A DNA stretch of 64,000 nucleotides from Shigella phage Sf13. Below are positions 7,296-36,943 of this stretch, piece after piece. The stretch lies in sequence record MF158040. One strand, 5' to 3'. The notes under the pieces were generated by a model. That model saw nothing but the letters and a program-made list of their open reading frames with translations, made no database searches and was not told the DNA's origin. The translations under genes were made by a program, and so were the position numbers. Each line of letters begins with the position of its first letter. Within the stretch, counting starts at the first letter, position 1.

Positions 7296-7628
7296 CTATT
7301 TATTTAAGTCAATGGATACTGAAGAGATAACATAAATTCCTTCTTCAGCAAAGAACTGAGGGCTACTTAGAGCACCTGTTGCCACGCACTTAGAGTTGTC
7401 ATCCCATAAGCTAAAATGAGAAACTGTAGCAGAAGCCGGAACAGTAATATTAACTGTGTCTTCTGAAGCAATTAATCCATTATTAGGTTCTGAGAAGAAG
7501 ATAGCCACTGGCTGAGTAACCTTGTTTGCTGTAGGGTCTGCCGTTGGGTCTACATTGTGTAATACAATAGTTGTCGGGGTTAGTGTGGCTAGGATTTTAT
7601 TCTTACCATCAATCGTTAATGTTCCCAT
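7296..7628 (-). CDS. hypothetical head protein
   Basis: ORF track; ATG start; within head module. Confidence 0.4.
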   Translation of the reverse strand: MGTLTIDGKNKILATLTPTTIVLHNVDPTADPTANKVTQPVAIFFSEPNNGLIASEDTVNITVPASATVSHFSLWDDNSKCVATGALSSPQFFAEEGIYVISSVSIDLNK

Positions 7629-8128
7629 TAATTAAACCTTACTTTTTGTTTAAGGATTGTTGAATGGTTACCAGATTCATCTACCACATTTACAATCATA
7701 TCATAAACTTTACCTTTGACAAGTACTTTGTAATCATTTTGTGAAAAAATGTACTCAAGTCTGTTAGACTCTTTATTTACTGTCATTGGAGATTGGAATG
7801 CTGTATCAATGGTAATGAATGCAGCTTCAACACTATTAACGTTAACACGTTTATTCTCACAGTTATATAACTTTACACCCAAAAGGCATGAACTGTCAAA
7901 TGGAATTTTAACAATTTCGTTACAATTGTTTGAAATAAACTGTTTTCCGCTCATTGGAGCATCAAGTAACCTGCAAATAGTGAAAACGTCAGAGGTTCCA
8001 CCATCACTAATATACCCTGAAAGGCTGACCCTTGAGCCAGCCTCTACAGTTAATTCATCAGTGATAATTAAGACACCTCTATAAGAATGCACTCGCGTAG
8101 CATTGGAAATAGAGATAACTTCTGCCAT
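7628..8128 (-). CDS. hypothetical head protein
   Basis: ORF track; start abuts portal gene stop. Confidence 0.4.
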   Translation of the reverse strand: MAEVISISNATRVHSYRGVLIITDELTVEAGSRVSLSGYISDGGTSDVFTICRLLDAPMSGKQFISNNCNEIVKIPFDSSCLLGVKLYNCENKRVNVNSVEAAFITIDTAFQSPMTVNKESNRLEYIFSQNDYKVLVKGKVYDMIVNVVDESGNHSTILKQKVRFN

Positions 8129-9594
8129 TATTTGTTTGCCTTATTAGCTGTGCTTGGGTCTTTAGCTGAAGGAGTTTTAGCAGTCCCTTCTCCAGCAGTT
8201 TGATAACCATCACCAGAACGACTTTGAGTGTTTGGAGATAGTTTCTCAGATACTGGTTTAGACTCATCAGCAGGTTCAAGGTCAAGATATTCTCTAAGCT
8301 TGTCAGATAATGGTTTGTCAACTTCCAGAGCACCAACTGCAACTGTCTTCTGAATGAATGATGCAATAGCTTCAAGGTCTGGTGTCTCAATATCATCATA
8401 CACAATTTCTACGTGTTCTTCATCATCCCACATATTTAGTGCATAAGTCTGAGCAACCAAATCACGGTTAATTACATTCTTCACTTGCTTCAGAAGAATA
8501 TCAACTGACATTGCCAGTAAGCTTGTCTTAGAATCTGCCAGAGAGAATGAGCCATACTTTGACTGTCCCATAGCAAGAACATCAGACATAAACGCCATCA
8601 TAATTTGCTTAGAGTATCTATCAATGATAGAACCTGTATCATAAGCTTTAGCGCCCTGTCGAGAAACTAATGAGAACTCAAAGATATCTTCTTTAGTTTC
8701 TGGGTCGATAAATCTAGGCCAAATTAAACCTGCTCTGTCATTAGCAATTAAATCATTTACTACTTCTTGGCAGTATTTAACAAAAGCTTTCTTTTCAGGT
8801 TCTGCATCTTCACCTAAGTAATCAGGTGGAAGACCAATCTTTGGCATACCTACTAAGTCTCTGGAAACACCAACTGCTTCAAACTCTTCAATTTGAACTT
8901 TGTATTTCCAAGGAACATAAGCATTAAGCAATGGTGAACGTCCCTCTGGGTTACCGTATTCATCGTCATACTTGAACAATAAGAATTTACTTCTGGGAAG
9001 CTTTCTTGTCAATGGTTGTTCACCAAGATTAATTGCTCCTGCAATATGGGAAACATTACGCAGGTTCTGTCTAACACCAATAACTTTTCTATAGTCAGAG
9101 TCAAAGTACCATTTGTCTAATGTAGTCTGATTACGGATTGGTAATTTAGCCCAACCAATTAAACCATCATTATATTTTGAAGGGTACTTACCTTTCTTAC
9201 CTTGACGTTTCTTATAAACTTTCTCGTTTACACAGAAACCGTAAGTACAGAATGACATTACAGAGTTAATAAAGTCAGCCCAATCGTGCTCCATGTCATT
9301 CATTAGTGAGTTAAAGAAATTAGCCCTTTCAATCATCTTGGCATCTTTCTCTTTTCCCTTCGGTGGTACGAATCTCCAGTTAACCTTTCTGACAAACATC
9401 TTAATAATATTTACAGAGGCTGCTACTGAAGGGTCTCTCATCATAAGTTGGAAAGTCTTAATACTTTCTGGGAATCTTAAAGCCTGTCTAGGTTCTTCAT
9501 AGATTCTTCCTGAGCGAACTTTAAGGCCAAGACTCCCAACCTCACCCATTCTGAATGGAGGAAGGCTTTCTTGTGTTTCTGTGATATCTGCCAT
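8128..9594 (-). CDS. portal protein (488 aa)
   Basis: ORF track; size and position immediately downstream of large terminase. Confidence 0.55.
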   Translation of the reverse strand: MADITETQESLPPFRMGEVGSLGLKVRSGRIYEEPRQALRFPESIKTFQLMMRDPSVAASVNIIKMFVRKVNWRFVPPKGKEKDAKMIERANFFNSLMNDMEHDWADFINSVMSFCTYGFCVNEKVYKKRQGKKGKYPSKYNDGLIGWAKLPIRNQTTLDKWYFDSDYRKVIGVRQNLRNVSHIAGAINLGEQPLTRKLPRSKFLLFKYDDEYGNPEGRSPLLNAYVPWKYKVQIEEFEAVGVSRDLVGMPKIGLPPDYLGEDAEPEKKAFVKYCQEVVNDLIANDRAGLIWPRFIDPETKEDIFEFSLVSRQGAKAYDTGSIIDRYSKQIMMAFMSDVLAMGQSKYGSFSLADSKTSLLAMSVDILLKQVKNVINRDLVAQTYALNMWDDEEHVEIVYDDIETPDLEAIASFIQKTVAVGALEVDKPLSDKLREYLDLEPADESKPVSEKLSPNTQSRSGDGYQTAGEGTAKTPSAKDPSTANKANK

Positions 9595-28170: not shown

Positions 28171-28194
28171 GTAAAAAGCCCCATCTAAGGGGCT
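28171..28194 (-). terminator. rho-independent terminator (minus strand) ending small-gene block
   Basis: AGCCCC-ttagat-GGGGCT hairpin followed by TTTTT on minus strand. Confidence 0.5.
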
Positions 28195-28235: not shown

Positions 28236-28493
28236 TTAGTTATTGAAGCCGTCAACTTCATAGTAAAGCGTGATAAGAGAATCACCCCAATAGTAAGAGG
28301 ATTTGCCATCCTTTAAGACTTCTTGTTTTACTTCTTTCCAGAACCACTCAGATTGATTGTAGTCCTGAATAGTTGCTTTTAGACACATATCAACCATGCC
28401 AAAAACATCGCCAGTTCCAACCATATCAAATTTAACATCTAATACATGGAAGCCAAAATTGTTAACAGTTGCGTGGATAGTAGCCATTTTCAT
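28236..28493 (-). CDS. hypothetical protein (85 aa)
   Basis: ORF track; ATG preceded by conserved GGAGAAT leader. Confidence 0.5.
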   Translation of the reverse strand: MKMATIHATVNNFGFHVLDVKFDMVGTGDVFGMVDMCLKATIQDYNQSEWFWKEVKQEVLKDGKSSYYWGDSLITLYYEVDGFNN

Positions 28494-28553
28494 ATTCTCC
28501 AGTTTAGGAATTTTGTTTTAGTGGGGAAGTCTCCCTCCCCGTTGAAAGTAATA
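28494..28553 (-). promoter_or_regulatory. intergenic cassette, short form (GC hairpin + conserved RBS leader)
   Basis: Minus-strand hairpin GGGGA...TCCCC followed by CCTAAACTGGAGAAT and ATG. Confidence 0.5.
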
Positions 28554-28817
28554 TTAATTCATTGCTGCATAAGTTGCAAGTCTTTTTTCATTGTATTTTG
28601 TAAGAATCTCACAAGATAAAACGTCATACTTTGCAACGGCTTCAGATTTAGTTAAACCGAAATGGCTTACAATTTCACCATTCATGAATCCGACTACTTC
28701 ATAAGATTCTGCGATGATTTCACCGTTGAACCAATCACTTTCAATACGTTTGCAAAGTTGGATATCTTCTTTGTCAGTACCGATTTGTAACAGGATAGTG
28801 ATTTCTTGATTATTCAT
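28554..28817 (-). CDS. hypothetical protein (87 aa)
   Basis: ORF track; ATG after conserved leader. Confidence 0.5.
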   Translation of the reverse strand: MNNQEITILLQIGTDKEDIQLCKRIESDWFNGEIIAESYEVVGFMNGEIVSHFGLTKSEAVAKYDVLSCEILTKYNEKRLATYAAMN

Positions 28818-28877
28818 TTTCTAGTCTCCAGTTTAGGATTGTTGGGGAAGGTCATTCCCTCCCCGTTGATAAGTACT
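28818..28877 (-). promoter_or_regulatory. intergenic cassette, short form
   Basis: Hairpin GGGGAAGG...CCCTCCCC variant plus CCTAAACTGGAGACTAGAAA leader. Confidence 0.5.
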
Positions 28878-29405
28878 TTATAGATTTGTGATGATTTCGT
28901 CAAGGGAATTTTCTAAGTTTTTTAAAGATTGTTCGTAAAGTCTAATTCCCCTATTTAATGCTTCCCCTAACGTAATTTTAAAACTAGTTGTTGGGTAGTC
29001 ACTTGTAAAGATGTTTTCCACTTCATAGAGTGGGTATTGTTGGTTACCCGTTCCCATAGCATACATGCCTGTATAGTGGATTGCAATAAAAAGATTATGG
29101 GACTTAATAGAGCGCTCATAAGCCATTTTAAAGCGGTTTAACTCGTTTTTAGTTGCCTTAATAGCCATTTCGTGAATTTCTGCGACTATAGCCATATAAT
29201 CATTCAGAATGAGAGAAATAGCCCCCATAAAGTTGTTGGCTGTTACCGCTTTTACATTTGGTCGGTGTACATAAAACTTCTTATCTTCCCCTTTTGTGAT
29301 AACTGCAAAAACTTTACTCTTTAAGGTAAATTCCCAAGTGTCTTTACAAGGCTTGCTCATCACTTCACGGCTACGGATTGCATTAACAGCATTAAACTTA
29401 TTCAT
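28878..29405 (-). CDS. hypothetical protein (175 aa)
   Basis: ORF track; ATG after conserved leader. Confidence 0.5.
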   Translation of the reverse strand: MNKFNAVNAIRSREVMSKPCKDTWEFTLKSKVFAVITKGEDKKFYVHRPNVKAVTANNFMGAISLILNDYMAIVAEIHEMAIKATKNELNRFKMAYERSIKSHNLFIAIHYTGMYAMGTGNQQYPLYEVENIFTSDYPTTSFKITLGEALNRGIRLYEQSLKNLENSLDEIITNL

Positions 29406-29470
29406 TCTAGATTCTCCAGTTTAGGAATTTTGTTTTAGTGGGGAAGTCTCCCTCCCCGTTGATGAATACT
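29406..29470 (-). promoter_or_regulatory. intergenic cassette, short form (identical core to 28494-28553)
   Basis: Same 50-mer as cassette at 28494; flank duplicated again at 32911-32950. Confidence 0.5.
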
Positions 29471-29611
29471 TTACTTGTTTTGATTCTGCATTGCAAGTAG
29501 TTTTTTATCAAAAACTTTATCTGAGATTTCACCAATGATGAGTACTGCTAATGGCAACACAACAGAAACAATCATACCACAAAGGATAGGGTTTTTAATG
29601 ATATCTAACAT
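29471..29611 (-). CDS. hypothetical small membrane protein (46 aa), not in ORF track
   Basis: ATG preceded by conserved GGAG leader; hydrophobic core ILCGMIVSVVLPLAVLIIG; C-terminus and 3' flank shared with ORF 32922..33269. Confidence 0.4.
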   Translation of the reverse strand: MLDIIKNPILCGMIVSVVLPLAVLIIGEISDKVFDKKLLAMQNQNK

Positions 29612-29807
29612 TTAGTGATTCTCCAGTTTAGGAAGTTGCCTTTTGAAGATACTATATAGATATGATTAAACCTTTGCAAGTACTTTTTACGCTTATCTAT
29701 AAAGAATCTATTAAGTTAATCCCTTTTAGATAAACCCCCTCGAACAAAGTTACACTTGTCAAGGGGCATTGTCAATAGTTTTTCAAAAGATTTTTATAAG
29801 TTGTTGA
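29612..29807 (-). promoter_or_regulatory. unique upstream region with partial cassette and candidate promoter
   Basis: Partial leader (CCTAAACTGGAGAATCACTAA) then unique sequence with two TTGACA hexamers; TTGACA-N17-TAACTT possible. Confidence 0.3.
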
Positions 29808-30149
29808 TTAGCTTATAAAGATTTTTTCTGGCTTAACATAGGTTAATGACTGTTTTTTAAGCAAATCAGACCAAATGAGCGCGGCAATGTGACTATATCC
29901 CTTTTCTCTTAACTCCTGCATAGCTGATTTGCGAGTTTCGAAACGTGTAGCGTAGTATTCAGTGTTAAGGGTAGTTTTATTCCCTTCATTGTCAACATGT
30001 ACAATCTGCATCACTTGAAAGGGGCTTACATCTTCTCCCCTGTTCCATTGCTCAAAGTACTTGAGACACTGCATAGGTTTCATTTTGTCGTTAACTTGGG
30101 TAGACCATGACGAATTTTCTTTATCGGTGATAATTGTTACATAGGCCAT
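29808..30149 (-). CDS. hypothetical protein (113 aa)
   Basis: ORF track; ATG after conserved leader. Confidence 0.5.
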   Translation of the reverse strand: MAYVTIITDKENSSWSTQVNDKMKPMQCLKYFEQWNRGEDVSPFQVMQIVHVDNEGNKTTLNTEYYATRFETRKSAMQELREKGYSHIAALIWSDLLKKQSLTYVKPEKIFIS

Positions 30150-30234
30150 TTTCAGATTCTCCAGTTTAGGATTGTTGGTAAAGCTCTTTATCTGGGGCTT
30201 AAGATACTAGCTTTTAAACCCCATGTAAAGCACT
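30150..30234 (-). promoter_or_regulatory. intergenic cassette, long form (sigma70-like promoter flanked by GGGG/CCCC inverted repeat, then conserved leader)
   Basis: Minus strand: TTTACA, 17-bp spacer, TATCTT; GGGG after -35 and CCCC after -10; leader ACAATCCTAAACTGGAGAAT. Confidence 0.55.
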
Positions 30235-30432
30235 TTAATAAATTCTATCCATCAGATTATTCACGGCCATAATTGCATTATCTTTGAAGTGTGGATGACT
30301 GCTATTCTGTGAGAATAGTATTTCTCCATTGTATACTATTTTTAGGTCTATCTTTGAACCTTCCATGTTAAGGTTACACTCTACACCTTTTAAACACCAC
30401 AAGGTAGAAAGTTTTTGCATCAGTGATAACAT
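30235..30432 (-). CDS. hypothetical protein (65 aa)
   Basis: ORF track; ATG after conserved leader. Confidence 0.5.
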   Translation of the reverse strand: MLSLMQKLSTLWCLKGVECNLNMEGSKIDLKIVYNGEILFSQNSSHPHFKDNAIMAVNNLMDRIY

Positions 30433-30523
30433 TTTAGATTCTCCAGTTTAGGATTGTTGGTAAAGCTCTTTATCTGGGGCTTATCTTATCTAACTATAAA
30501 CCCCATGTAAAGTACTTTATTAG
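30433..30523 (-). promoter_or_regulatory. intergenic cassette, long form
   Basis: TTTACA, 17 bp, TAAGAT with flanking GGGG/CCCC and conserved leader. Confidence 0.55.
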
Positions 30524-30745
30524 TTATTTGTAGTAATAATATGTAAACTCATTTATCAGGCTTCCATCCTCATCATTATACTGCTTATGACTAGCCAGAT
30601 AACCGCCATTAGCTAGAATTTCATCAATCAACTTTTTAGCGTCATCGTTGGGAATCCTAACAGGTTTACTAAACGGCTGTAAATAGGTACGACGAACATT
30701 TGAGAATTTAAAATCAATGGTTTTTACGTTAAGAACTTGCAACAT
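30524..30745 (-). CDS. hypothetical protein (73 aa)
   Basis: ORF track ORF (TTG start inside cassette) trimmed to ATG at M27 directly after conserved leader. Confidence 0.45.
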   Translation of the reverse strand: MLQVLNVKTIDFKFSNVRRTYLQPFSKPVRIPNDDAKKLIDEILANGGYLASHKQYNDEDGSLINEFTYYYYK

Positions 30746-30823
30746 TTTTTGAATCTCCAGTTTAGGATTGTTGGGATGTTTCCCGTTGATGAATACTTTA
30801 CTTTCTTGCGTTTTCAGTGTCAA
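30746..30823 (-). promoter_or_regulatory. intergenic cassette, short form
   Basis: Hairpin GGGA-aaca-TCCC plus conserved leader. Confidence 0.5.
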
Positions 30824-31054
30824 CTACTTTTCTATAAGAATCTCATATTCACCATTCACACTATCAAAGTAAATACCTTCATCATCTTCTGATTTATAGT
30901 AGCACTGTATATCATCCGATGCTGGGTAGTCTTGCCTTGCTATCTGACAGGCAACAATAGCATTATTTTCGCTACCTGTAAACTCTTCTAAACCTTTAAA
31001 GTTGCATTGTGAACCATTGCAGATAGATAGAATAAGATAGATTGTTGTAAGCAT
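30824..31054 (-). CDS. hypothetical secreted/membrane-anchored protein (76 aa, N-terminal hydrophobic signal-like segment)
   Basis: ORF track; N-terminus MLTTIYLILSICNGSQC; AGAGG RBS; lacks the conserved cassette. Confidence 0.45.
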   Translation of the reverse strand: MLTTIYLILSICNGSQCNFKGLEEFTGSENNAIVACQIARQDYPASDDIQCYYKSEDDEGIYFDSVNGEYEILIEK

Positions 31055-31117
31055 CTTTTAAGCCTCTTGTAAGCCCCTGTGCGGGGCTTTTCTAGTGAAC
31101 TGGTGTGATTCTATGGT

Positions 31118-31675
31118 TTATGCTGTTAAGTCGTTTATAACCGTTTCTGTTACGTTGCATTGCATGGTGTCAAAGATATCACAATATACATTGCTCATCC
31201 CATCACTACGTTGGACTATTTCTGCAATGTTGCGTAGTTCGTCTGGTACATATCCTAAATTTCTATTGTTTAGGTTAGGGACAAAGAAAGGCGCATACAT
31301 AGCATTAAATTCAGTTGTGTAAACCTTTTTAATCCATTCTTTATCGAAATATTCTGTAAAGCTTGCTACGTCGCTCATGTTCTCACAGCTCCAGTCATCT
31401 TGTAAATCATCTTCTGGAATATCCAGTTCCAAGATAACAAGCTTTTGTGACTTCATTTGATAGGCTGCTGTAATGCTTGCGCTATCAAGCGCGTTTCTAA
31501 TACCTTCATCTGTGATTTGTTCGTCATCCAGATTCTCTACATCATAGAACTTGTTAACAGGGTAGACGTAAAAACATCCATCCATATCAGAGCAATTCCA
31601 AGCTCCTGATGGTTTATCACCGCCATTGATAAGGTTTACAAAGTTTTCTTGTGTAGTACCATGAAAGCATTTCAT
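31118..31675 (-). CDS. hypothetical protein (185 aa)
   Basis: ORF track; ATG after conserved leader. Confidence 0.5.
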   Translation of the reverse strand: MKCFHGTTQENFVNLINGGDKPSGAWNCSDMDGCFYVYPVNKFYDVENLDDEQITDEGIRNALDSASITAAYQMKSQKLVILELDIPEDDLQDDWSCENMSDVASFTEYFDKEWIKKVYTTEFNAMYAPFFVPNLNNRNLGYVPDELRNIAEIVQRSDGMSNVYCDIFDTMQCNVTETVINDLTA

Positions 31676-31759
31676 TTTAGATTCTCCAGTTTAGGATTGT
31701 TGGTAAAGCTCTTTATCTGGGGCTTATCTTATCTAACTATAAACCCCATGTAAAGCACT
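31676..31759 (-). promoter_or_regulatory. intergenic cassette, long form
   Basis: TTTACA, 17 bp, TAAGAT; GGGG/CCCC flanks; conserved leader. Confidence 0.55.
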
Positions 31760-32008
31760 TTATTTAGTTTTCTTTGTAAAGATTAGTTTAACGGCAACAG
31801 TTGGTAACTCTTCAATACTTGTGAACAAAGTCACTTTTTGAGTCTTGACATTATAGCCATACTTTGAACCATAAGCCGTAAAACGGTTTACAATGTAACT
31901 GTAAGTTTTTGCAGTGTTATCTGGCATATGATATAAAAACGGCTTGCCAAGGTTATCAAGTTGTGTTAAGAGTCGGCATGTATCAGGGATATTCAACATA
32001 TTAAACAT
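31760..32008 (-). CDS. hypothetical protein (82 aa)
   Basis: ORF track; ATG after conserved leader. Confidence 0.5.
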   Translation of the reverse strand: MFNMLNIPDTCRLLTQLDNLGKPFLYHMPDNTAKTYSYIVNRFTAYGSKYGYNVKTQKVTLFTSIEELPTVAVKLIFTKKTK

Positions 32009-32093
32009 TTTCAGATTCTCCAGTTTAGGATTGTTGGGGCTTCTAACTTGCCCCGTTGATGAGTACTCTACTACTATGCTTTTGCAATGTCAA
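32009..32093 (-). promoter_or_regulatory. intergenic cassette, short form
   Basis: Hairpin GGGGC-aagttagaa-GCCCC plus conserved leader. Confidence 0.5.
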
Positions 32094-32501
32094 TCAAATC
32101 TCTGAATAAATTGCATCGCAGATTTCACGGAAAACTTCAACCGGTAAGTTACGCTGTAACCATGTTGCAAAGAAATCAGCAATTGCAAAGTTTGCATCAA
32201 AATCAACACATAGCCACACTTTAACAGCAAATCTAAACATTTTCAAGTCAAGTTCTTTATTCATTACTTTTGACTTTGACAGCATTTCTTTCATCTCATA
32301 CTGAGCACCGTCAATTATAGCTCCTGCTGCTACATCTTGCAAGGATTCTTTAAGCTGTTTTGTGTCTACTACTGCGCCCTGAATTTTACCGATGATATTA
32401 TGTAGTGTTTCGTCTGGTGCTGCTGATGTTACAATGTTGATGCGGTTAATGGTCAAACGTGCTTTCAAAATTGCAACTTCTTTGTGATTAACATTAGTCA
32501 T
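32094..32501 (-). CDS. hypothetical protein (135 aa)
   Basis: ORF track; ATG after leader. Confidence 0.5.
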   Translation of the reverse strand: MTNVNHKEVAILKARLTINRINIVTSAAPDETLHNIIGKIQGAVVDTKQLKESLQDVAAGAIIDGAQYEMKEMLSKSKVMNKELDLKMFRFAVKVWLCVDFDANFAIADFFATWLQRNLPVEVFREICDAIYSEI

Positions 32502-32590
32502 TTTCTAGTCTCCAGTTTAGGTTAGTTTTAGATAAATCTCTTTATCTGGGGCTATCTTAGCAACTTGATAACCCCATGTAAAGCAATTTA
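32502..32590 (-). promoter_or_regulatory. intergenic cassette, long form
   Basis: TTTACA, 17 bp, TAAGAT; leader variant CTAAACTGGAGACTAGAAA. Confidence 0.55.
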
Positions 32591-32863
32591 TTAGACTAAA
32601 TACAATTTTTTACCACTAACAATAATGTAACTTACACCGCTATTACTGTAAACATCTTGATAAATTCTGCGTAACTTTCCAAGGTATCGAACTTTCCAAG
32701 ATGTAGGAATTTTCTTTCCATATCCTGTGGCGGTTTTTTGTAGACCTGCTACCTGCCAATCTAATAGGTGCTGTTCTGCTCTTAACTCTTCAAAGTTTAA
32801 TACACCGTCTACATAGTGTTTTAAAGTTACGTTCAAAGTTCGACCGTCATTAGTAGTATACAT
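32591..32863 (-). CDS. hypothetical protein (90 aa)
   Basis: ORF track; ATG after leader. Confidence 0.5.
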   Translation of the reverse strand: MYTTNDGRTLNVTLKHYVDGVLNFEELRAEQHLLDWQVAGLQKTATGYGKKIPTSWKVRYLGKLRRIYQDVYSNSGVSYIIVSGKKLYLV

Positions 32864-32921
32864 TTTAGATTCTCCAGTTTAGGATTGTTGGGACTTCTAT
32901 CTTGCCCCGTTGATGAATACT
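32864..32921 (-). promoter_or_regulatory. intergenic cassette, short form
   Basis: Imperfect hairpin GGGGCAAGATAGAAGTCCC plus conserved leader; upstream flank duplicated at 29461-29500. Confidence 0.5.
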
Positions 32922-33269
32922 TTACTTGTTTTGATTCTGCATTGCAAGCTCTTTTTTATTAATTTCTTGCGCTATCACAATATAATAATCTTTCAGGTTT
33001 ATATCTTGAATTGACTCTAGAAGTATGTCATAATCACTGATTAATTTAAAATCACCGTCTAGAATGTTATCAATCCGGTATGTCTCTGCTTTAAATCGAA
33101 AGCTCATCTCTAAACGTTTCAATTGTTCTAAGTTCAAACGCTCTAAAAAGCCCCGTACAAGGTTTATTTTTAAATCCCTTGTAAGTGCCTTATTAGCTAT
33201 ACTGTGCGCTTGTAAGGCTTTATAGAGCGCCACAATAGAGATAAAAATTGCAACGTATGTGATTAACAT
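32922..33269 (-). CDS. hypothetical membrane protein (115 aa, N-terminal TM)
   Basis: ORF track; ATG overlaps stop of upstream gene; C-terminus KKELAMQNQNK shared with small ORF 29471..29611. Confidence 0.5.
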   Translation of the reverse strand: MLITYVAIFISIVALYKALQAHSIANKALTRDLKINLVRGFLERLNLEQLKRLEMSFRFKAETYRIDNILDGDFKLISDYDILLESIQDINLKDYYIVIAQEINKKELAMQNQNK

Positions 33270-33559
33270 TTGTTTTTACCTTTGTGGAATAGTTTACCAG
33301 TGTGACTAATTTCATATGAATCAACCATATCTCTAGTGGTCTTAATCGATGACTTATTAGTGTTATCATAGATATCAACCTGAAGCAATGGTTTTTTGTA
33401 TTCTTTACAAAAGTTCCATACACAAATTATTACTTCCTTTTTGTTAATCTTTCCATGATACCACTCTACGGCTTCAGATGTACGGCGCATGGATTCAATG
33501 AATTGGATATTACTTAATAGCTGGCTTAATTTAGTTCTAACGTTTGCGGCAATAAACAT
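33263..33559 (-). CDS. hypothetical protein (98 aa)
   Basis: ORF track; ATG after leader. Confidence 0.5.
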   Translation of the reverse strand: MFIAANVRTKLSQLLSNIQFIESMRRTSEAVEWYHGKINKKEVIICVWNFCKEYKKPLLQVDIYDNTNKSSIKTTRDMVDSYEISHTGKLFHKGKNKC

Positions 33560-33643
33560 TTTAGATTCTCCAGTTTAGGATTGTTTGTAAAGCTCTTTAT
33601 CTGGGGCTATCTTATCAACTTGATAACCCCATGTAAAGCACTT
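33560..33643 (-). promoter_or_regulatory. intergenic cassette, long form
   Basis: TTTACA, 17 bp, TAnnnT; GGGG/CCCC flanks; leader. Confidence 0.55.
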
Positions 33644-34156
33644 TTAGATATTAAAGATATTCATAACAGAATCTTTCAAGGCTTCTAAACGTTCCATTAC
33701 TTCAGATTCTCCATCGGAGTTCGACACTTCCTCTTCTAATCGTGAATCTAAATCTTCACCGTCAAGATAGCACCAATCGAAGCCATAAGCAAGAGAAAAG
33801 CTATTTAATACTGTATTACCTTCTTTATCTTCTACCTTTGCAAATAGCACGTAGCTGTTAGCCTCTAAATCTCTTTGTAATTCATCTTGTAAGCTCTTGT
33901 AAGCCTCTATAGATGGATTTTCGCGGCCTTGTTTAGCATAATCACTCATCAATTGTGAAAGGCTGTAATGCTGTGGAATTGCATATTTGTACCCGTTACG
34001 CTCTGGATTTTTAAGTTTGATTGTAACCCCGCCTTTGTGCTCATCGGTAAACTTCCAATTTTCCACACAATGGGATGCTTCACAAATATTAACAGCTTCA
34101 TAGATGATAGTGAATTTTTCTTTTTGAACTTCAAAGGTAGCTTCAACGTATGACAT
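33644..34156 (-). CDS. hypothetical protein (170 aa)
   Basis: ORF track; ATG after leader. Confidence 0.5.
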   Translation of the reverse strand: MSYVEATFEVQKEKFTIIYEAVNICEASHCVENWKFTDEHKGGVTIKLKNPERNGYKYAIPQHYSLSQLMSDYAKQGRENPSIEAYKSLQDELQRDLEANSYVLFAKVEDKEGNTVLNSFSLAYGFDWCYLDGEDLDSRLEEEVSNSDGESEVMERLEALKDSVMNIFNI

Positions 34157-34248
34157 ATTAAGATTCTCCAGTTTAGGACTATTGGTTAGTAAAGCTCTTT
34201 ATCTGGGGCTTATACTAGCAACTTATAAACCCCATGTAAAGCACTTTA
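34157..34248 (-). promoter_or_regulatory. intergenic cassette, long form
   Basis: TTTACA, 17 bp, TAGTAT; GGGG/CCCC flanks; leader variant. Confidence 0.55.
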
Positions 34249-34506
34249 TCAGATTAAATTGTCAGTTAATGATAAGTGCATTTTATAACCTTTCTTCGTG
34301 TAGACGTTAGTTCTACCGATTGCTTTTACACCTTTGAAAAGGTCATAGGAACTACGTTTTAAAGTAATTTCCTTATCACATTTCACGCCCCATCTTACAG
34401 CAGATTCTTTTCCGTTGTCAACCACTTTACCATTTAATTTTTTAGCAGTTGCGCGAGCGTCATCACGAGATTTTGCAGATACAATGATGTTTTTGATAGT
34501 AGCCAT
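34249..34506 (-). CDS. hypothetical protein (85 aa)
   Basis: ORF track; ATG after leader. Confidence 0.5.
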   Translation of the reverse strand: MATIKNIIVSAKSRDDARATAKKLNGKVVDNGKESAVRWGVKCDKEITLKRSSYDLFKGVKAIGRTNVYTKKGYKMHLSLTDNLI

Positions 34507-34597
34507 TTTTGATACTCCAGTTTAGGTTATTGTTTGGTAAAGCTCTTTATCTGGGGCTTATCTTATCTAACTATAAACCCCATGTAAAGGACTTTAT
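34507..34597 (-). promoter_or_regulatory. intergenic cassette, long form
   Basis: TTTACA, 17 bp, TAAGAT; leader variant CCTAAACTGGAGTATCAAAA. Confidence 0.55.
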
Positions 34598-34978
34598 TTA
34601 GTTAATTTTGAAAACTGTAACGTAGCCATCACTACCAATAGTTTGAGATACTCCAGCTTTCTCTATATCATACCCCATTTTATCAAGATGGTACATTGCA
34701 TCTTCATACCCATATTTACCGCCTTGATAGCGTCTTTTTTCGCATCGTATCACAGTTTTACCACGTCCTGCAATAGCATTTATGATAGCTTTTTCACCGG
34801 ATAATGTACCGTCAAGCATAGTAGCTTTGTAGTGGTTAATACGGTTACCATTAACATCATACTTAAAATTGTAAGCGTGAACAACAATTATTTTTCCTTT
34901 GAAGTTTTCTTTCATAGTTTCCTCTAAGATACTACGAAAGTTTTCTTTGTTGATAAATTTAGGCGCACGATATTTCAT
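34598..34978 (-). CDS. hypothetical protein (126 aa)
   Basis: ORF track; ATG after leader. Confidence 0.5.
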   Translation of the reverse strand: MKYRAPKFINKENFRSILEETMKENFKGKIIVVHAYNFKYDVNGNRINHYKATMLDGTLSGEKAIINAIAGRGKTVIRCEKRRYQGGKYGYEDAMYHLDKMGYDIEKAGVSQTIGSDGYVTVFKIN

Positions 34979-35062
34979 TTTAGATTCTCCAGTTTAGGAT
35001 TGTTGGTAAAGCTCTTTATCTGGGGCTTAAGATACTAGATTTTAAACCCCATGTAAAGCACT
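34979..35062 (-). promoter_or_regulatory. intergenic cassette, long form
   Basis: TTTACA, 17 bp, TATCTT; GGGG/CCCC flanks; leader. Confidence 0.55.
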
Positions 35063-35224
35063 TTATGCAATAATTTTTATAAAATATTTCATGGTTATTT
35101 TGTCGCCATTGGTAAGGGCTATACAATCATTACCCATAGCAGACTTATAGAGATAGAAGACTTTACCAATTTTTGGGTATCCGTCTAAATCTTTGTATTG
35201 TATTACATCGCTTTCTTTAATCAT
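35063..35224 (-). CDS. hypothetical protein (53 aa)
   Basis: ORF track ORF (TTG start) trimmed to ATG at M27 with AAAGG RBS; candidate TTTACA-N17-TTATTA promoter upstream. Confidence 0.4.
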   Translation of the reverse strand: MIKESDVIQYKDLDGYPKIGKVFYLYKSAMGNDCIALTNGDKITMKYFIKIIA

Positions 35225-35235
35225 TGTCAAGCCTT

Positions 35236-35442
35236 TTAAACGTTGTAATAATAAATTGCTGTATGCCTTGTAAACTGTCTTGTATGAGTTGTCAAGTAAC
35301 AATCTGAACTGATTGACGTATCAACATATTCATCAAAATCCTTTTCTGAGATACGTTGCCAAACATCACAAATTAGCATATAGAAACGACGTTTATTTGT
35401 TTTGTTGTTGTCAACAATCATTAACTCACGTTGATATAACAT
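35236..35442 (-). CDS. hypothetical protein (68 aa)
   Basis: ORF track; ATG after leader. Confidence 0.5.
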   Translation of the reverse strand: MLYQRELMIVDNNKTNKRRFYMLICDVWQRISEKDFDEYVDTSISSDCYLTTHTRQFTRHTAIYYYNV

Positions 35443-35500
35443 TTTAGATTCTCCAGTTTAGGATTGTTGGGATGTTTCCCGTTGATGCAAATACTATAAG
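35443..35500 (-). promoter_or_regulatory. intergenic cassette, short form
   Basis: Hairpin GGGA-aaca-TCCC plus conserved leader; same variant as 30746-30823. Confidence 0.5.
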
Positions 35501-35693
35501 ACTGGATTTATGAAGTCAACAAAATTTTTAAAAATATTTTCGATGCTTCGTGAATAGAACGCACGTATGCGGATACACTAAAACAGGAATTTAGTCAAGA
35601 ATTATTTTTGAGTTCTCTACAAATTTTTCTCTTGACTTTTGGGAGGAAGGGGATTAAGAGGGGATGGTGGGGCTGGTTTCCTACAGCTACCTA

Positions 35694-35885
35694 CCTGCAC
35701 AATTTGAAAATGAATTTTCCCTTTGGAGTCCAACTGCATCTGCACAGATTGAAAATGAAAAAGCTCTTTGGAGTCTAAACCTGCACAAATTTGAAATGAA
35801 TTTTCCCTTTGGAGTTCAGCTAAAGAAATCTGTCCAGAGTTCTATGCAACTATACCTGCACAAATTTAAAATGAAAAAGCCCTCC
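35694..35885. repeat. four imperfect ~40-bp direct repeats (CCTGCACAAATTTGAAAATGAA...TTTGGAGT)
   Basis: Units start near 35694, 35740, 35780, 35855; indels between units shift the frame of the overlapping plus ORF. Confidence 0.55.
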
Positions 35886-35946
35886 TTACCTGAGATTTTT
35901 AAACTCAAACTTTGGAGGGCTTGTCTATGTCTAGCTAGGTGACTTA

Positions 35947-36741
35947 TTAGTTACGTGCTTCAACATAGCTTACGTTTTCATGTGTGATATAATCTTCTGC
36001 AAACTCTTCTGTAGTAGCATTGATATATACACTTGCATCATCGCCAAACGTTACCGCTCTGTGGTGGTGGCCTTGTAACGGGTGGGTAACTTGAGCGTTA
36101 CTTCGATTGTACTTATCAACCGGAGGGTAACTGGTGTGTACCTTGCCATTACGCTTCACCTTGAGGGTAACTTTATCCTTGCCTACCACAGCAACACCAT
36201 CAAAGTATTGAGGCTCACTGAAGTTCTCCCAACCAGTAACAGGACTAGTCAACTGACTGTACATCTTATCTTCATAGACATACATATATACGTCAACATC
36301 TTTCATGGTCTGATTAATAATGGACAGCACAGCCATACTATCAAGACCACCAATCCCTGCACCAATCATAGGGAGTCCAACCTTCTTAAGCTGGTTTACT
36401 TTACAGTAGTTGTTAAGACGCTGTAAAGCTGCTTCTAAGGCATTGTATCGTGCATTTTTTCCAGTGATAACCTGAGTATAAAGGTTAGCAATTCGACCCT
36501 GCTTCAAACGTGCTACAGAGATGTTACCAAGCATTAGATTCTTAGGGTTATGGTTTTCACCACCTACTGTAGCATAAACTTCAGCGTCAGTTTCATAAGC
36601 TTTTGGGTAGCGTTTAGCAATTGTTGCTGCGATACCTGCACCCATCAAGTTCATGCAGTTACAACCGTGACCAATGATATCAAACTTCTTACCATCAAAG
36701 TCTTTAAAGATATCACCTTTAATAATTTTTACGATACCCAT
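35947..36741 (-). CDS. macro domain (ADP-ribose binding/processing) protein with C-terminal domain of unknown function
   Basis: Macro-like motifs IIKGDIF...GHGCNCMNLMGAGIAATIAKRYP ... KKVGLPMIGAGIGGLD; start set to ATG at M20 one nt after the zinc-ribbon gene stop. Confidence 0.55.
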   Translation of the reverse strand: MGIVKIIKGDIFKDFDGKKFDIIGHGCNCMNLMGAGIAATIAKRYPKAYETDAEVYATVGGENHNPKNLMLGNISVARLKQGRIANLYTQVITGKNARYNALEAALQRLNNYCKVNQLKKVGLPMIGAGIGGLDSMAVLSIINQTMKDVDVYMYVYEDKMYSQLTSPVTGWENFSEPQYFDGVAVVGKDKVTLKVKRNGKVHTSYPPVDKYNRSNAQVTHPLQGHHHRAVTFGDDASVYINATTEEFAEDYITHENVSYVEARN

Positions 36742-36742
36742 A

Positions 36743-36943
36743 TTAGTAATGCTCCCAACGTTCGTTATCTTCAGATGGTTTAACTCGGTTACCTTCATGG
36801 TCTACCCATAAAGCACCGCAACCTTCACAGATTACTGGCATTGCTGAACCAGCTTCAAACTCTGCCTTTGTAAAGAGACCTTTTAAGTCTCCTGTATCTT
36901 TTCCAAACATCTCAACAGAACACTTAGTGCAGAAATCAGCCAT
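36743..36943 (-). CDS. zinc-ribbon protein (66 aa; CxxC...CxxC)
   Basis: ORF track; Cys pairs FCTKC and CEGC; coupled to macro-domain gene. Confidence 0.5.
   Translation of the reverse strand: MADFCTKCSVEMFGKDTGDLKGLFTKAEFEAGSAMPVICEGCGALWVDHEGNRVKPSEDNERWEHY

What the first reader, a model, noticed from the sequence alone, without database searches (positions are those of the whole stretch)
28494..35500. Family of 15 conserved intergenic cassettes, one per small gene, resembling mobile promoter/stem-loop modules
Nearly every small minus-strand gene in this block is preceded by a 60-90 bp cassette ending in a near-invariant leader (ACAATCCTAAACTGGAGAATCTAAA then ATG). Nine long-form cassettes carry, on the minus strand, TTTACA, a 17-bp spacer and a TAnnnT -10 (TAAGAT, TAGTAT or TATCTT), with GGGG right after the -35 and CCCC right after the -10. 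The spacer sequence differs between copies while the hexamers and GGGG/CCCC flanks are kept, which argues for selection on promoter function. This is the architecture described for promoter-early stem-loop modules that mediate gene shuffling in hyperplastic regions of T4-type phages; the genes they drive are all unknown small proteins, the usual place for host-takeover or anti-defence functions.
Basis: partly seen in the sequence, partly recalled or inferred. Interest (0 to 1): 0.7.

Follow-up and report, generated by a model that had tools for sequence, protein, structure and literature searches.

The report
Promoter–hairpin gene cassettes in Felix O1-like phage
A Felix O1-type phage drives about 19 small genes of unknown function with 16 copies of a reusable promoter–hairpin–ribosome-site cassette, and related phages gain, lose and duplicate these genes by recombining between cassettes, as reported before only for T4-type phages.

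Summary
The core CCTAAACTGGAG occurs 16 times, all on the minus strand at 28497-35462 (0.3 expected), ahead of 16 of 19 ORFan genes in an Ounavirinae (Mooglevirus) early block. There are two architectures. Type A (8 copies, not 9) has TTTACA-N17-TAnnnT embedded in a G-run/C-run hairpin. Type B (7 copies) has TTGACA-like-N17-TAnAGT upstream of a 5'-terminal hairpin. One copy has no hairpin. Across 85 unique type A copies from four genera, the -35 and positions T1/A2/T6 of the -10 never change, while 21 stems and 41 loops do. Not noted in any paper I found: the two flanks of type A pair into a lower stem, giving a 21-bp two-part hairpin (dG about -23, z -4 to -6, covariation supported). It can form only in read-through RNA and has the geometry of T7 RNase III sites. 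Relatives differ by whole cassette+gene units with chimeric cassette junctions, so PeSL-like modular shuffling is supported. This is partly published: Felix O1's 57/39-bp repeats (2010) and Mordin's 26-bp "SAS-like" leader (2015), neither interpreted. I found no paper giving the PeSL reading for this subfamily. No transcript data exist. Verdict: a new member of a known kind, of moderate interest.

The parts
35443..35519 (-). Type B cassette 1 (first of block, drives w1): -35 TTGACT 35519..35514, -10 TAGTAT 35496..35491, 5' hairpin GGGA-aaca-UCCC 35480..35469, leader core 35462..35451, ATG 35442. Very AT-rich (0.88) 25 nt upstream.
34979..35065 (-). Type A cassette (drives w3): lower-stem 5' strand with stop codon 35065..35054, -35 TTTACA 35057..35052, upper hairpin 35050..35022, -10 TATCTT 35034..35029, lower-stem 3' strand 35018..35007, leader core 34998..34987
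34507..34596 (-). Type A cassette (drives w4): -35 TTTACA 34588..34583, upper hairpin 34581..34553, -10 TAAGAT 34565..34560, leader core 34526..34515
34157..34248 (-). Type A cassette (drives w5): -35 TTTACA 34240..34235, upper hairpin 34233..34205 (10-bp stem), -10 TAGTAT 34217..34212, leader core 34177..34166
33560..33645 (-). Type A cassette (drives w6): 28-nt hairpin class GGGGUUAUC/GAUAGCCCC 33630..33603, -35 TTTACA 33637..33632, -10 TAAGAT 33614..33609, leader core 33579..33568
32864..32947 (-). Type B cassette (drives w8): -35 TTGCAA 32947..32942 and spacer lie inside the 3' end of gene w7 (…LAMQNQNK*), -10 TAAAGT 32924..32919 (contains the stop codon), hairpin 32908..32890, leader core 32883..32872
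32502..32590 (-). Type A cassette (drives w9): carries the covarying lower-stem pair U5-A55 (TAAATTGC…GAGATTTA); -35 32582..32577, hairpin 32575..32548, -10 TAAGAT 32559..32554, leader core 32521..32510
32009..32093 (-). Type B cassette (drives w10): -35 TTGACA 32093..32088, -10 TAGAGT 32070..32065, hairpin GGGGC…GCCCC 32054..32036, leader core 32029..32018
31676..31762 (-). Type A cassette (drives w11): -35 31754..31749, hairpin 31747..31719, -10 TAAGAT 31731..31726, lower-stem 3' strand 31715..31704, leader core 31695..31684
30746..30823 (-). Type B cassette (drives w13): -35 TTGACA 30823..30818, -10 TAAAGT 30800..30795, hairpin GGGA-aaca-UCCC 30784..30773, leader core 30766..30755
30433..30519 (-). 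Type A cassette (drives w14): -35 30511..30506, hairpin 30504..30476, -10 TAAGAT 30488..30483, leader core 30452..30441
30150..30237 (-). Type A cassette (drives w15): -35 30229..30224, hairpin 30222..30194, -10 TATCTT 30206..30201, leader core 30170..30159
29612..29679 (-). Hairpin-less cassette (drives w16): -35 TTGCAA 29679..29674, -10 TATAGT 29656..29651, leader core 29632..29621
29406..29496 (-). Type B cassette (drives w17): -35 TTGCAA 29496..29491 inside the 3' end of w16 (…LAMQNQNK*), -10 TAAAGT 29473..29468, hairpin GGGGAGG…CUUCCCC 29457..29440, leader core 29425..29414
28818..28903 (-). Type B cassette (drives w18): -35 TTGACG 28903..28898, -10 TAAAGT 28880..28875, hairpin GGGGAGGG…CCUUCCCC 28864..28844 (dG -17.9), leader core 28837..28826
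28488..28579 (-). Type B cassette (drives w19, last gene): -35 TTGCAA 28579..28574, -10 TAATAT 28556..28551, hairpin 28540..28523, leader core 28508..28497
28236..35442 (-). The 19 ORFan genes w1-w19 (46-185 aa) that the cassettes separate. Equivalent to Felix O1 genes 14-23.
28177..28194 (-). Canonical intrinsic terminator closing the block (AGCCCCTTAGATGGGGCT + TTTTT). Counterpart of Felix O1 t23.

Best explanation
The block is the early, hyperplastic ORFan region of a Felix O1-like (Ounavirinae, Mooglevirus) phage. It is built from 16 copies of a composite expression cassette. Each cassette supplies four things in about 70-90 bp. (1) The stop codon of the gene before it. (2) A host sigma70 promoter with a strict 17-bp spacer. 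(3) A G-run/C-run RNA hairpin. (4) A nearly invariant translation-initiation leader (AACAAUCCUAAACUGGAG, then 8-9 nt, then AUG). In type B the promoter comes first, so the hairpin sits about 2-4 nt from the mRNA 5' end. This is the arrangement known to protect E. coli mRNAs from 5'-end-dependent decay (inference). In type A the promoter is embedded in the hairpin: the -35 sits at its foot and the -10 in its loop and 3' arm. The two flanks (UAAAGUGCUUUA and UAAAGAGCUUUA) pair to extend the hairpin to a 21-bp two-part helix with a 2x2 internal loop. That structure can form only in RNA read through from the upstream gene. Type A therefore acts twice: as DNA it starts a transcript, and as RNA it marks the boundary between cistrons. 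The RNA role is most likely a processing, 3'-stabilising or attenuating signal of the T7 RNase III-site or PeSL-terminator kind, which is inferred and not shown. Because the cassettes are long near-identical repeats, homologous recombination between them deletes, inserts, duplicates and swaps whole cassette+gene units, and every product keeps a working promoter, stop codon and ribosome site. The repeat family, the conserved promoter geometry, the covarying hairpins and the chimeric junctions in relatives are shown here. Promoter activity, the fate of the hairpin RNA and the role of the leader are inferred.
For: Repeat family: 16 copies against 0.3 expected, on one strand, in one block. The single cassette is found in 286 phage records at 1478 places, essentially all of them Felix O1-like phages of enterobacteria and Erwinia. 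Promoters: all 8 type A and 5 type B were found by a neutral scan. All 76 unique non-A copies have a 17-bp spacer. In 85 unique type A copies from Mooglevirus, Suspvirus, Felixounavirus and Kolesnikvirus, CTTTACA and T1/A2/T6 of the -10 are invariant, although T1/A2 lie in the hairpin loop and there are 21 stems and 41 loops. Spacing stays at 17 when hairpin length changes from 29 to 28 nt. Felix O1 genes downstream of these repeats (16, 20, 21, 22) peak at 5 min in RT-PCR (PMC3185647). Hairpin: RNAalifold predicts both stems unprompted. 94.9% of cells pair, against 33-60% when the partner is slid. The covariation score is 0.115 against 0.047, with 0 of 500 shuffles reaching it. Compensatory pairs are GC/UA/AU/GU at columns 9-61 and GC/UA at 22-48, and there is a conserved U.G wobble. 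Seven window copies fold identically, dG -22.8 to -24.7, z -4.3 to -6.1. Shuffling: gene content varies from 7 cassette-anchored genes in Felix O1 to 20 in Michonne, in cassette+gene units. After a deletion the downstream gene inherits the upstream cassette type. The Sf14 junction is an exact chimera with the crossover in CCCCAGATAAAGAGCTTTAC. Michonne and Mordin carry cassette-to-cassette fusions. About 11 of 13 distinct indels have both ends in or at cassettes, which make up 20.5% of the block.
Against: There are no 5'-end, 3'-end or expression data for this phage, and I found no transcriptome paper for the group. The type A hexamers are only moderate matches (TTTACA 5/6; -10 4/6). Over the whole region, promoter-like sites are not strongly enriched (44 against 30.9 +/- 5.7). 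The hairpins lack a T-run and are not called terminators. If type A RNA is efficiently cut or terminated, its own promoter may matter little, and the reverse also holds. Many copies are orthologous or gene-converted, so the number of independent compensatory events is small. Indel ends would also fall in intergenic DNA simply because gene-disrupting indels are lost (caveat). An AT-rich UP element is only weakly evident for type A (0.765 against 0.648 +/- 0.083).
Confidence: 0.68

Rival explanations
1. RNA-only reading of type A. The block is transcribed as long polycistronic RNAs from the type B promoters. Type A is purely an intercistronic RNA hairpin (RNase III site, 3' stabiliser or attenuator), and TTTACA/TAnnnT is not a working promoter.
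For: The lower stem can form only in read-through RNA, and it is supported by covariation and a wobble pair. TTTA of the '-35' is itself part of the lower stem. The geometry matches T7 intercistronic RNase III regions. The hexamers are moderate matches.
Against: T1 and A2 of the hexamer lie in the hairpin loop, where 41 loop sequences otherwise vary, yet they are invariant in 85 unique copies. The distance to TTTACA stays at 17 (18 in five copies with an extra loop base) even when hairpin length changes. An RNA loop has no known reason to conserve this pattern.
Confidence: 0.2
2. DNA-operator reading. The two 12-bp palindromes TAAAGnnCTTTA that flank the type A promoter (over the -35 and at about +4 to +15) are binding sites for a dimeric phage or host protein that shuts early promoters off. 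The hairpin potential is a by-product.
For: Each flank is a palindrome with 5-bp half-sites. The flanks bracket the promoter and are conserved from enteric to Erwinia phages.
Against: The observed changes break the symmetry within each palindrome (G5 to U without C8 changing; C55 to A without G52 changing) but keep pairing between the two palindromes (pair 9-61: GC 66, UA 15, AU 1, GU 1). The U.G wobbles pair only in sense-strand RNA. Type B promoters have no such sites.
Confidence: 0.08
3. Translation-signal-only reading (the published one for phage Mordin). The conserved leader is a 'start-associated sequence' acting in translation initiation, and the upstream parts carry no separate function.
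For: The leader contains the SD, sits 8-9 nt from ATG, and is the most uniform part within a genome. SAS in cluster K mycobacteriophages have the same placement.
Against: This does not explain the invariant -35/-10 geometry, the covarying hairpins or the chimeric junctions. The leader itself diverges in Erwinia phages (CCTTAyAAAGGAA) while the promoter and hairpin parts persist.
Confidence: 0.07
4. Neutral relic. The cassettes are recent tandem duplications carried along with duplicated genes, kept similar by gene conversion and not by selection.
For: Lineage-specific majority variants of the leader suggest some homogenisation within genomes: window AATCTA 7/16, SUSP2 ATTCAA 9/13.
Against: The 19 flanked genes belong to 19 different PHROGs, so the genes were not duplicated with the cassettes. 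The pattern of invariant and variable positions matches promoter and helix rules across four genera.
Confidence: 0.03

Closest known systems
PeSL (promoter-early stem-loop) cassettes of T4-type phages RB49/phi1, T4/PST, KVP40/nt-1 (Arbiol et al. 2010 PMC2839356; Comeau et al. 2014 PMC4122927)
   Same: Both are composites of a sigma70-type early promoter, a Gn-loop-Cn stem-loop placed between the -35 and -10 or overlapping the -10, and an SD and start codon at the 3' end. Both are about 70-100 bp, are repeated many times in a hyperplastic region, flank ORFans, and form the boundaries of indels between close relatives with chimeric junctions.
   Different: This is a different phage subfamily (Ounavirinae), with no sequence similarity to T4-type phages. 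All copies sit in one block on one strand. A second architecture has the hairpin after the start site. A lower stem formed from the two flanks gives a 21-bp helix. The leader is much more uniform. Promoter and terminator activity and mini-circles were shown for PeSLs and are untested here.
Start-associated sequences (SAS/ESAS) of cluster K mycobacteriophages (Pope et al. 2011 PMC3203893). This comparison was already made for phage Mordin (Guan et al. 2015 PMC4611695).
   Same: Both are a short asymmetric repeat containing the SD, a few nt before ATG, in one orientation, upstream of many non-structural genes of different families. About half are accompanied by an upstream inverted repeat.
   Different: ESAS inverted repeats do not covary as an RNA hairpin would, whereas these do. 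SAS are not described as carrying promoters or as recombination junctions. The host and sequence are unrelated.
Intercistronic RNase III processing sites of the phage T7 early region
   Same: Both lie in short gaps between early genes. The stop codon is in the lower stem, followed by an internal loop and a 9-10 bp GC-rich upper stem, about 20 bp in all, dG about -20 to -26. Minor E. coli promoters and T7 promoters lie in the same gaps.
   Different: The T7 internal loops are larger and asymmetric, and the lower stems are shorter (5 bp against 11). RNase III cleavage is established for T7 (my own knowledge). Here it is only a geometric resemblance, and there is no sequence similarity.
Direct repeats listed in the Felix O1 genome paper (Whichard et al. 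2010 PMC3185647)
   Same: The 57-bp repeat CTTTACATGGGGCTTAAAAGTCTGTAAAGTAAGCCCCAGATAAAGAGCTTTACCACT is a type A cassette. The 39-bp repeat TTGACACTGG…ACATCAAC is a type B promoter.
   Different: They were reported only as two-copy direct repeats, with no promoter, hairpin or recombination interpretation. That paper states that internal promoters were not identified.

Membership tests
PeSL (composite promoter-early stem-loop cassette) | sigma70-like early promoter (-35, about 17 bp, -10) | tested here: met
   All 16 window cassettes have one. A neutral scan finds 13. All 76 non-A copies have a 17-bp spacer, and 80 of 85 type A copies have 17, the other 5 having 18. The -35 and T1/A2/T6 of the -10 are invariant in 85 unique type A copies.
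PeSL (composite promoter-early stem-loop cassette) | Stable stem-loop with a G tract then a C tract, between the -35 and -10 or overlapping the -10 | tested here: met
   Met for the 8 type A copies: GGGG starts 1 nt after the -35, and the 3' arm overlaps the -10; z -4.3 to -6.1. Not met for the 7 type B copies, where the Gn-loop-Cn hairpin follows the start site, nor for the one hairpin-less copy.
PeSL (composite promoter-early stem-loop cassette) | [quoted passage not shown] | tested here: inconclusive
   The 25 nt upstream of the type A -35 are 76.5% AT, against a block mean of 64.8 +/- 8.3%. Only the first cassette (35519) is strikingly AT-rich at 88%.
PeSL (composite promoter-early stem-loop cassette) | SD and start codon at the 3' end; located in a hyperplastic region flanking ORFans | tested here: met
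   GGAG lies 8-9 nt before ATG in all 16. All 19 genes lack a Pfam domain and are of unknown function in PHROGs. Gene content varies from 7 to 20 cassette-anchored genes among relatives.
PeSL (composite promoter-early stem-loop cassette) | Indels and replacements between close relatives are bounded by cassettes, with recombinant (chimeric) cassettes | tested here: met
   The Sf14 junction is an exact chimera. KPS64, Henu11, Moogle and Silverhawkium carry hybrid cassettes. Maleficent has an insertion of x1 plus a cassette. Michonne has a tandem duplication and Mordin a fusion. Caveat: selection also favours intergenic breakpoints.
PeSL (composite promoter-early stem-loop cassette) | Demonstrated promoter and terminator activity; encapsidated mini-circles | not testable with these tools
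   These are experimental features (lacZ fusions, inverse PCR in PMC2839356). No canonical T-run follows the hairpins.
PeSL (composite promoter-early stem-loop cassette) | Occurs in T4-type myoviruses; sequence related to known PeSLs | tested here: not met
   The host genome is Ounavirinae. A blastn search with the cassette finds essentially only Felix O1-like phages of enterobacteria and Erwinia. So it is an analogue in another lineage and not a homologue.
SAS/ESAS (cluster K mycobacteriophages) | Short asymmetric repeat containing the SD, 3-7 nt before the start codon of many non-structural genes, in one orientation | tested here: met
   16 of 16 are on one strand, with an 8-9 nt spacer. Definition. 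The sequence and hosts are unrelated, so the resemblance is one of form only.
SAS/ESAS (cluster K mycobacteriophages) | Upstream 17-bp inverted repeats that do not behave as an RNA hairpin | tested here: not met
   Here the inverted repeats covary and keep G.U wobbles, unlike ESAS.
RNase III processing site (T7 early type) | About 20 bp of helix in two coaxial stems separated by an internal loop, in an intercistronic gap | tested here: met
   Type A has 6+5 bp lower, a 2x2 loop and 10 bp upper. T7 gaps fold as 5 bp, a loop and 9-10 bp.
RNase III processing site (T7 early type) | Cleavage by host RNase III in vivo or in vitro | not testable with these tools
   This needs end mapping in rnc+ and rnc- hosts or an in vitro cleavage assay.
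Intrinsic (rho-independent) terminator | GC-rich hairpin followed directly by a U-run | tested here: not met
   No cassette hairpin was called. The tail after CCCC is AGAUAAAG, and after the lower stem it is CCAAC. The only minus-strand call is the block-end terminator 28194..28177.
Rfam RNA families | Match to any curated covariance model | tested here: not met
   There were only two chance miRNA hits at E 0.33 and 0.91, far below their gathering scores.

The most novel reading that the evidence does not exclude
Type A is a dual-use element in which the same 60 nt work as a promoter in DNA and as an RNase III-type processing hairpin in read-through RNA. Its geometry would make an initiated transcript (start just after CCCC) and a processed transcript (cut in the 3' side of the internal loop) carry almost the same unstructured 5'UTR. 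Any ORF dropped between two cassettes would then be expressed as an autonomous, position-independent unit. The invariant leader would be the handle by which a phage-encoded factor switches the whole early set off together, in the manner of T4 RegA or RegB.
Probability: 0.15. Interest if true: 0.7.

Novelty: new member of a known kind. Interest (0 to 1): 0.45.

Why it matters
PeSL-type cassettes have been described only in T4-type phages. Finding the same solution, built from unrelated sequence, across a second large group of therapeutic and typing phages (286 records in the phage collection) suggests two things. Promoter–hairpin–RBS repeats may be a general, convergent device for keeping accessory early genes expressible while shuffling them. 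They may also explain where Felix O1-like genomes differ. In practice the cassettes give ready-made boundaries for deleting or swapping the ORFan genes, a set of graded natural early promoters and 5' hairpins, and a clear set of sites for TSS and processing mapping. The covarying lower stem is a concrete, testable claim about read-through and RNA processing in these phages.

Tried and rejected
(1) Canonical terminators: the scan calls none of the cassette hairpins, because there is no T-run.
(2) Known RNA family: Rfam returned nothing.
(3) Cassettes elsewhere in the genome: there are none in the other 45 kb of the window or in the 28 kb outside it.
(4) Homology with T4-type PeSLs: a blastn search with the cassette finds essentially only Felix O1-like phages of enterobacteria and Erwinia.
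(5) Integron-like attC array (small promoterless ORFs separated by imperfect palindromes): considered and rejected. Each unit has its own promoter. Crossover points are scattered along the cassette (hairpin-leader segment in Sf14, leader/TAAAGTG in Michonne, GCTTTAC in Mordin) and not at one core site. The wobble pairs point to sense-strand RNA. A search for an integrase was not made.
(6) Function of the genes: Pfam found nothing except a sub-threshold Transposase_1 hit for w15 (16.2 bits against a cut-off of 24, taken as chance). PHROGs labels all of them 'unknown function'.
(7) A fixed-register identity comparison of leaders, meant to quantify concerted evolution, was uninformative because of 1-2 nt indels. 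Only the simple variant counts are used, and only as a hint.
(8) The first pairwise global alignment timed out and was repeated with a faster mode. The Sf14 events after 29755 in that output are artefacts of the record ending inside the block, and the split Moogle gaps were merged by hand.
(9) MAFFT placed the 1-nt gap of the 28-nt hairpin class inside the stem, which breaks pairs 26-28. This was corrected with an outside-in register.
(10) Literature: no transcriptome or TSS study of Felixounavirus or Mooglevirus was found.

Full report
**What the window is.** The 8.2-kb region matches Escherichia phage vB_EcoM_3HA14 at 97.7% identity. It also matches Shigella and Citrobacter phages of the genus Mooglevirus, subfamily Ounavirinae, which are Felix O1-like. 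The block lies between a long-loop terminator-like hairpin at about 35900, which matches Felix O1 t13, and a canonical terminator at 28194..28177, which matches t23. It corresponds to Felix O1 genes 14-23. It holds 19 minus-strand genes of 46-185 aa. None has a Pfam domain, and each falls in its own PHROG of unknown function. The gene just upstream (35947..36798) is the Macro-domain protein.

**Checking the observation.** CCTAAACTGGAG occurs 16 times, always on the minus strand, between 28497 and 35462; 0.30 copies are expected by chance. Looser matches elsewhere in the window lie inside unrelated coding sequence. The 28 kb of genome outside the window has none. I count 16 cassettes, not 15, and 8 long-form cassettes, not 9. 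Three genes have no cassette: w2, w7 (which overlaps w6) and w12.

**Two architectures.**
- **Type A (8 copies).** The layout is stop codon within UAAAGUGCUUUA, then TTTACA, one base, GGGG…loop…CCCC, AGAUAAAGAGCUUUACC, AACAAUCCUAAACUGGAG, 8-9 nt, ATG. A TAnnnT hexamer lies exactly 17 bp after TTTACA. Its first bases are in the hairpin loop and its last bases are in the 3' arm.
- **Type B (7 copies).** The layout is TTGACA/TTGCAA/TTGACT/TTGACG, 17 bp, TAnAGT/TAGTAT/TAATAT, about 6 nt, CAAC, GGG(G)…CCC(C), then the same leader. The hairpin sits about 2-4 nt from the predicted 5' end.
- **Hairpin-less copy.** One copy (29679..29612) has the promoter and leader but no G/C hairpin.
- **Overlap with coding sequence.** In two type B cassettes the -35 and spacer lie inside the preceding gene. 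As a result the unrelated genes w7 and w16 end with the same peptide, LAMQNQNK.

**Promoter evidence.** A neutral consensus scan finds all 8 type A promoters and 5 of the others. The region as a whole is only mildly enriched in promoter-like sites (44 against 30.9 +/- 5.7), and none of the cassette hairpins scores as a terminator. I collected 119 type A copies, 87 of them unique, from 18 loci in four genera: Mooglevirus, Suspvirus, Felixounavirus and the Erwinia-infecting Kolesnikvirus. In the alignment of 85 unique copies, CTTTACA and hexamer positions T1, A2 and T6 are invariant, while positions 3-5 and the spacer vary. There are 21 different stems and 41 different loops. T1 and A2 lie in the loop in essentially all copies. 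The spacing is 17 bp in 80 copies and 18 bp in the five copies that carry an extra loop base. The 29-nt and 28-nt hairpin classes both keep 17. This is the signature of a sigma70 -10 element and is hard to explain for an RNA loop. All 76 unique non-A cassettes have a 17-bp spacer. Published RT-PCR for Felix O1 puts genes 16, 20, 21 and 22, which follow these repeats, among those maximal at 5 min.

**Hairpin evidence and a longer structure.** The two type A flanks, UAAAGUGCUUUA and UAAAGAGCUUUA, are complementary to each other. RNAalifold, given only the alignment, predicts this lower stem together with the upper G/C stem. For the full structure, 94.9% of cells pair, against 33-60% when the partner is slid by 1-3 columns. 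The covariation score is 0.115 against a shuffled mean of 0.047, and 0 of 500 shuffles reach it. Informative pairs are:
- Lower-stem columns 9-61: GC 66, UA 15, AU 1, GU 1.
- Upper-stem columns 22-48: GC 77, UA 8. The UA pairs are the Erwinia phages, with GGUG/CACC.
- Columns 24-45: UG 65, CG 19.

The wobble pairs would be A.C mismatches on the other strand, which points to sense-strand RNA. Seven window copies all fold as 6 bp, a 1x1 mismatch, 5 bp, a 2x2 internal loop and 10 bp, with dG -22.8 to -24.7 kcal/mol and z -4.3 to -6.1. The 5' strand of the lower stem contains the upstream stop codon and the -35. It therefore lies upstream of the cassette's own start site, and the long hairpin can exist only in RNA read through from the previous gene. 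The 5'UTR that would start at the embedded promoter is unstructured (z +0.1).

Caveats: many copies are orthologous or gene-converted, so independent compensatory events are few. MAFFT also misplaces one gap, which I corrected separately.

**What the RNA hairpin does.** This is inferred. It is not a canonical intrinsic terminator, because it has no U-run, and it matches no Rfam family. Its geometry resembles that of the T7 early intercistronic regions, which by my own knowledge hold the RNase III sites. Those regions fold as a 5-bp lower stem containing the stop codon, an internal loop and a 9-10 bp GC-rich upper stem, with dG -20 to -26. T7 also has minor E. coli promoters and T7 promoters in the same gaps. 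The PeSL authors found that a comparable stem-loop reduced downstream lacZ as strongly as the rrnB T1 terminator. I cannot choose between processing, attenuation and 3' stabilisation. For type B, a hairpin within a few nt of the 5' end is the arrangement known to stabilise E. coli mRNAs (established knowledge, not tested here).

**Recombination evidence.** I clustered the genes across 13 genomes. The block has 19 genes here and in 3HA14, 20 in Michonne, 13 in Moogle and 7 recognised in Felix O1, and the differences are whole cassette+gene units. After a deletion, the downstream gene carries the cassette type of the upstream partner: Henu11 and Moogle have B:w15, Moogle has B:w11, and Silverhawkium has B:w3. 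Where Maleficent has an extra gene x1, w13 changes from a type B to a type A cassette.
- **Sf14.** Sf14 lacks w3-w5. Its junction cassette has the w3 hairpin variant joined to the w6-specific SNP, so the crossover lies within the shared CCCCAGATAAAGAGCTTTAC.
- **Sf18.** In Sf18, w10 is replaced by an unrelated gene. The replacement is bounded by the type B promoter on one side and AAGTGCTTTACA on the other.
- **Michonne and Mordin.** Michonne has a tandem duplication of A:w4 with the junction …AATCTAAAATG|CTTTACATGGGG. Mordin has a cassette-to-cassette fusion GAGCTTTACCAA|CTTTACATGGGG.
- **All indels.** Of about 13 distinct indels of 40 bp or more inside the block, about 11 have both ends in or at the edge of cassettes, which occupy 20.5% of the block.

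Selection against gene-disrupting indels would also place ends in intergenic DNA. The exact chimeras and fusions are therefore the stronger evidence. Crossover points are scattered along the cassette, which fits general homologous or microhomology recombination better than a site-specific system.

**Distribution and prior literature.** A single 93-nt cassette finds 286 phage records and 1478 places, essentially all of them Felix O1-like phages of enterobacteria and Erwinia. In Erwinia phiEa104 the promoter, the hairpin and GAUAAAGAGCUUU persist, while the leader has drifted to CCTTAyAAAGGAA.

Parts of this are already published. Whichard et al. 2010 listed a 57-bp and a 39-bp direct repeat in Felix O1. 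These are a type A cassette and a type B promoter. The authors did not interpret them and stated that they did not know how transcription proceeds past the terminators. Guan et al. 2015 reported the 26-bp consensus CCAACAATCCTAAACTGGAGAATCTA upstream of 8 Mordin genes, likened it to mycobacteriophage start-associated sequences, and gave its role as unknown. The Mordin record annotates 14-bp repeat_regions.

In the searchable library, 'PeSL' appears only in the two T4-type papers and two passing mentions. I found no paper applying it to Ounavirinae.

**Comparison with known systems.** The cassettes work like PeSLs and meet every PeSL feature testable from sequence. Two exceptions apply: the AT-rich upstream element is weak, and the phage lineage and sequence are different. 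They are best filed as an independent, analogous member of that kind. They share placement and orientation with SAS/ESAS, but unlike ESAS they covary as RNA.

**Verdict.** I add three things: the split into two architectures, the covarying lower stem that implies read-through RNA, and nucleotide-level recombination junctions. Experimental proof of promoter activity and RNA fate is missing. Novelty is moderate because two components were already noted in print.

Noticed in passing
window 35693-35896: Four direct repeats of about 43 nt (spacing 45, 41, 75 nt; 63-88% identity) lie between the upstream t13-like terminator and the first cassette. On the sense (minus) strand each reads roughly …CTCCAAAGGG(A)AAATTCATTTyAAATTTGTGCAGGT. 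A plus-strand ORF (35664..35942, 92 aa) overlaps them and is annotated as a hypothetical protein in some relatives (3HA14, Moogle, Silverhawkium, KPS64, Sf14). It is unclear whether this is a gene, degenerate terminator copies or protein-binding iterons.
   Followed up: partly
window 29612-29807: An unusually long (about 160 nt) non-coding gap lies between w15 and w16. It has two TTGACA motifs 7 nt apart and a CCCCUUGA…UUCGAGGGG inverted repeat, with polarity opposite to the cassettes. Several GenBank records of close relatives begin or end near here: Sf14 ends with a second copy of w15, Sf19 ends at about window 28818, and ESh20 starts at about 29331. The physical genome ends or a terminal repeat may lie in or near this block.
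   Followed up: no
window 32922-32950 and 29471-29499: Two unrelated genes (w7, 115 aa; w16, 46 aa) end with the same peptide …LAMQNQNK*. The -35 and spacer of the following type B promoter (TTGCAA-N17-TAAAGT) lie inside their coding sequence. The cassette therefore writes the C-terminus and stop codon of whatever gene precedes it.
   Followed up: partly
window 31055-31117: The w11-w12 gap has no cassette. It has a different hairpin, AAGCCCC-gcaca-GGGGCUU (C-run first), followed by AGAGG and ATG. This gene pair is never separated in any relative examined.
   Followed up: no
leader, e.g. window 31698-31684; L015 (phiEa104) about 4060-4090: In every fold, UCC just upstream pairs with GGA of the Shine-Dalgarno sequence (3 bp, 6-nt loop, about -2.7 kcal/mol). 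In Erwinia phages, where the SD is AAGGA, the upstream bases are CCUU, which keeps a 4-bp pairing. This may be why CCUAAACU is conserved, or it may be coincidence.
   Followed up: partly
L005 (Michonne) 8045-8131; L014 (Mordin) type A copy starting AGCTTTACCAACTTTACATGGGG: These are natural cassette-to-cassette fusions with no gene between them. Michonne's goes with a tandem duplication of the 85-aa gene w4 and leaves a 9-codon pseudo-ORF. They show that the leader end (TAAAATG) and the cassette start (TAAAGTG), and the two GCTTTAC repeats within a cassette, can recombine.
   Followed up: partly
L010 (Sf18) about 7370-7395, equivalent to window 32856-32906: Sf18 has a 51-bp deletion that removes most of the type B cassette ahead of w8. 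Its annotators call a longer w8 (101 aa) overlapping w7. This is a natural cassette-less variant that could show what the cassette contributes.
   Followed up: no
window 29811-30149 (w15): There is a weak, sub-threshold Pfam hit to Transposase_1 (partial DDE domain; E 0.0095, 16.2 bits against a cut-off of 24). I treated it as chance.
   Followed up: no
window about 15040-15090: The sequence GGTTCGAATCCC… was seen next to a loose motif hit. It looks like a tRNA T-arm, consistent with the tRNA cluster known in Felix O1-like phages. I did not scan it.
   Followed up: no
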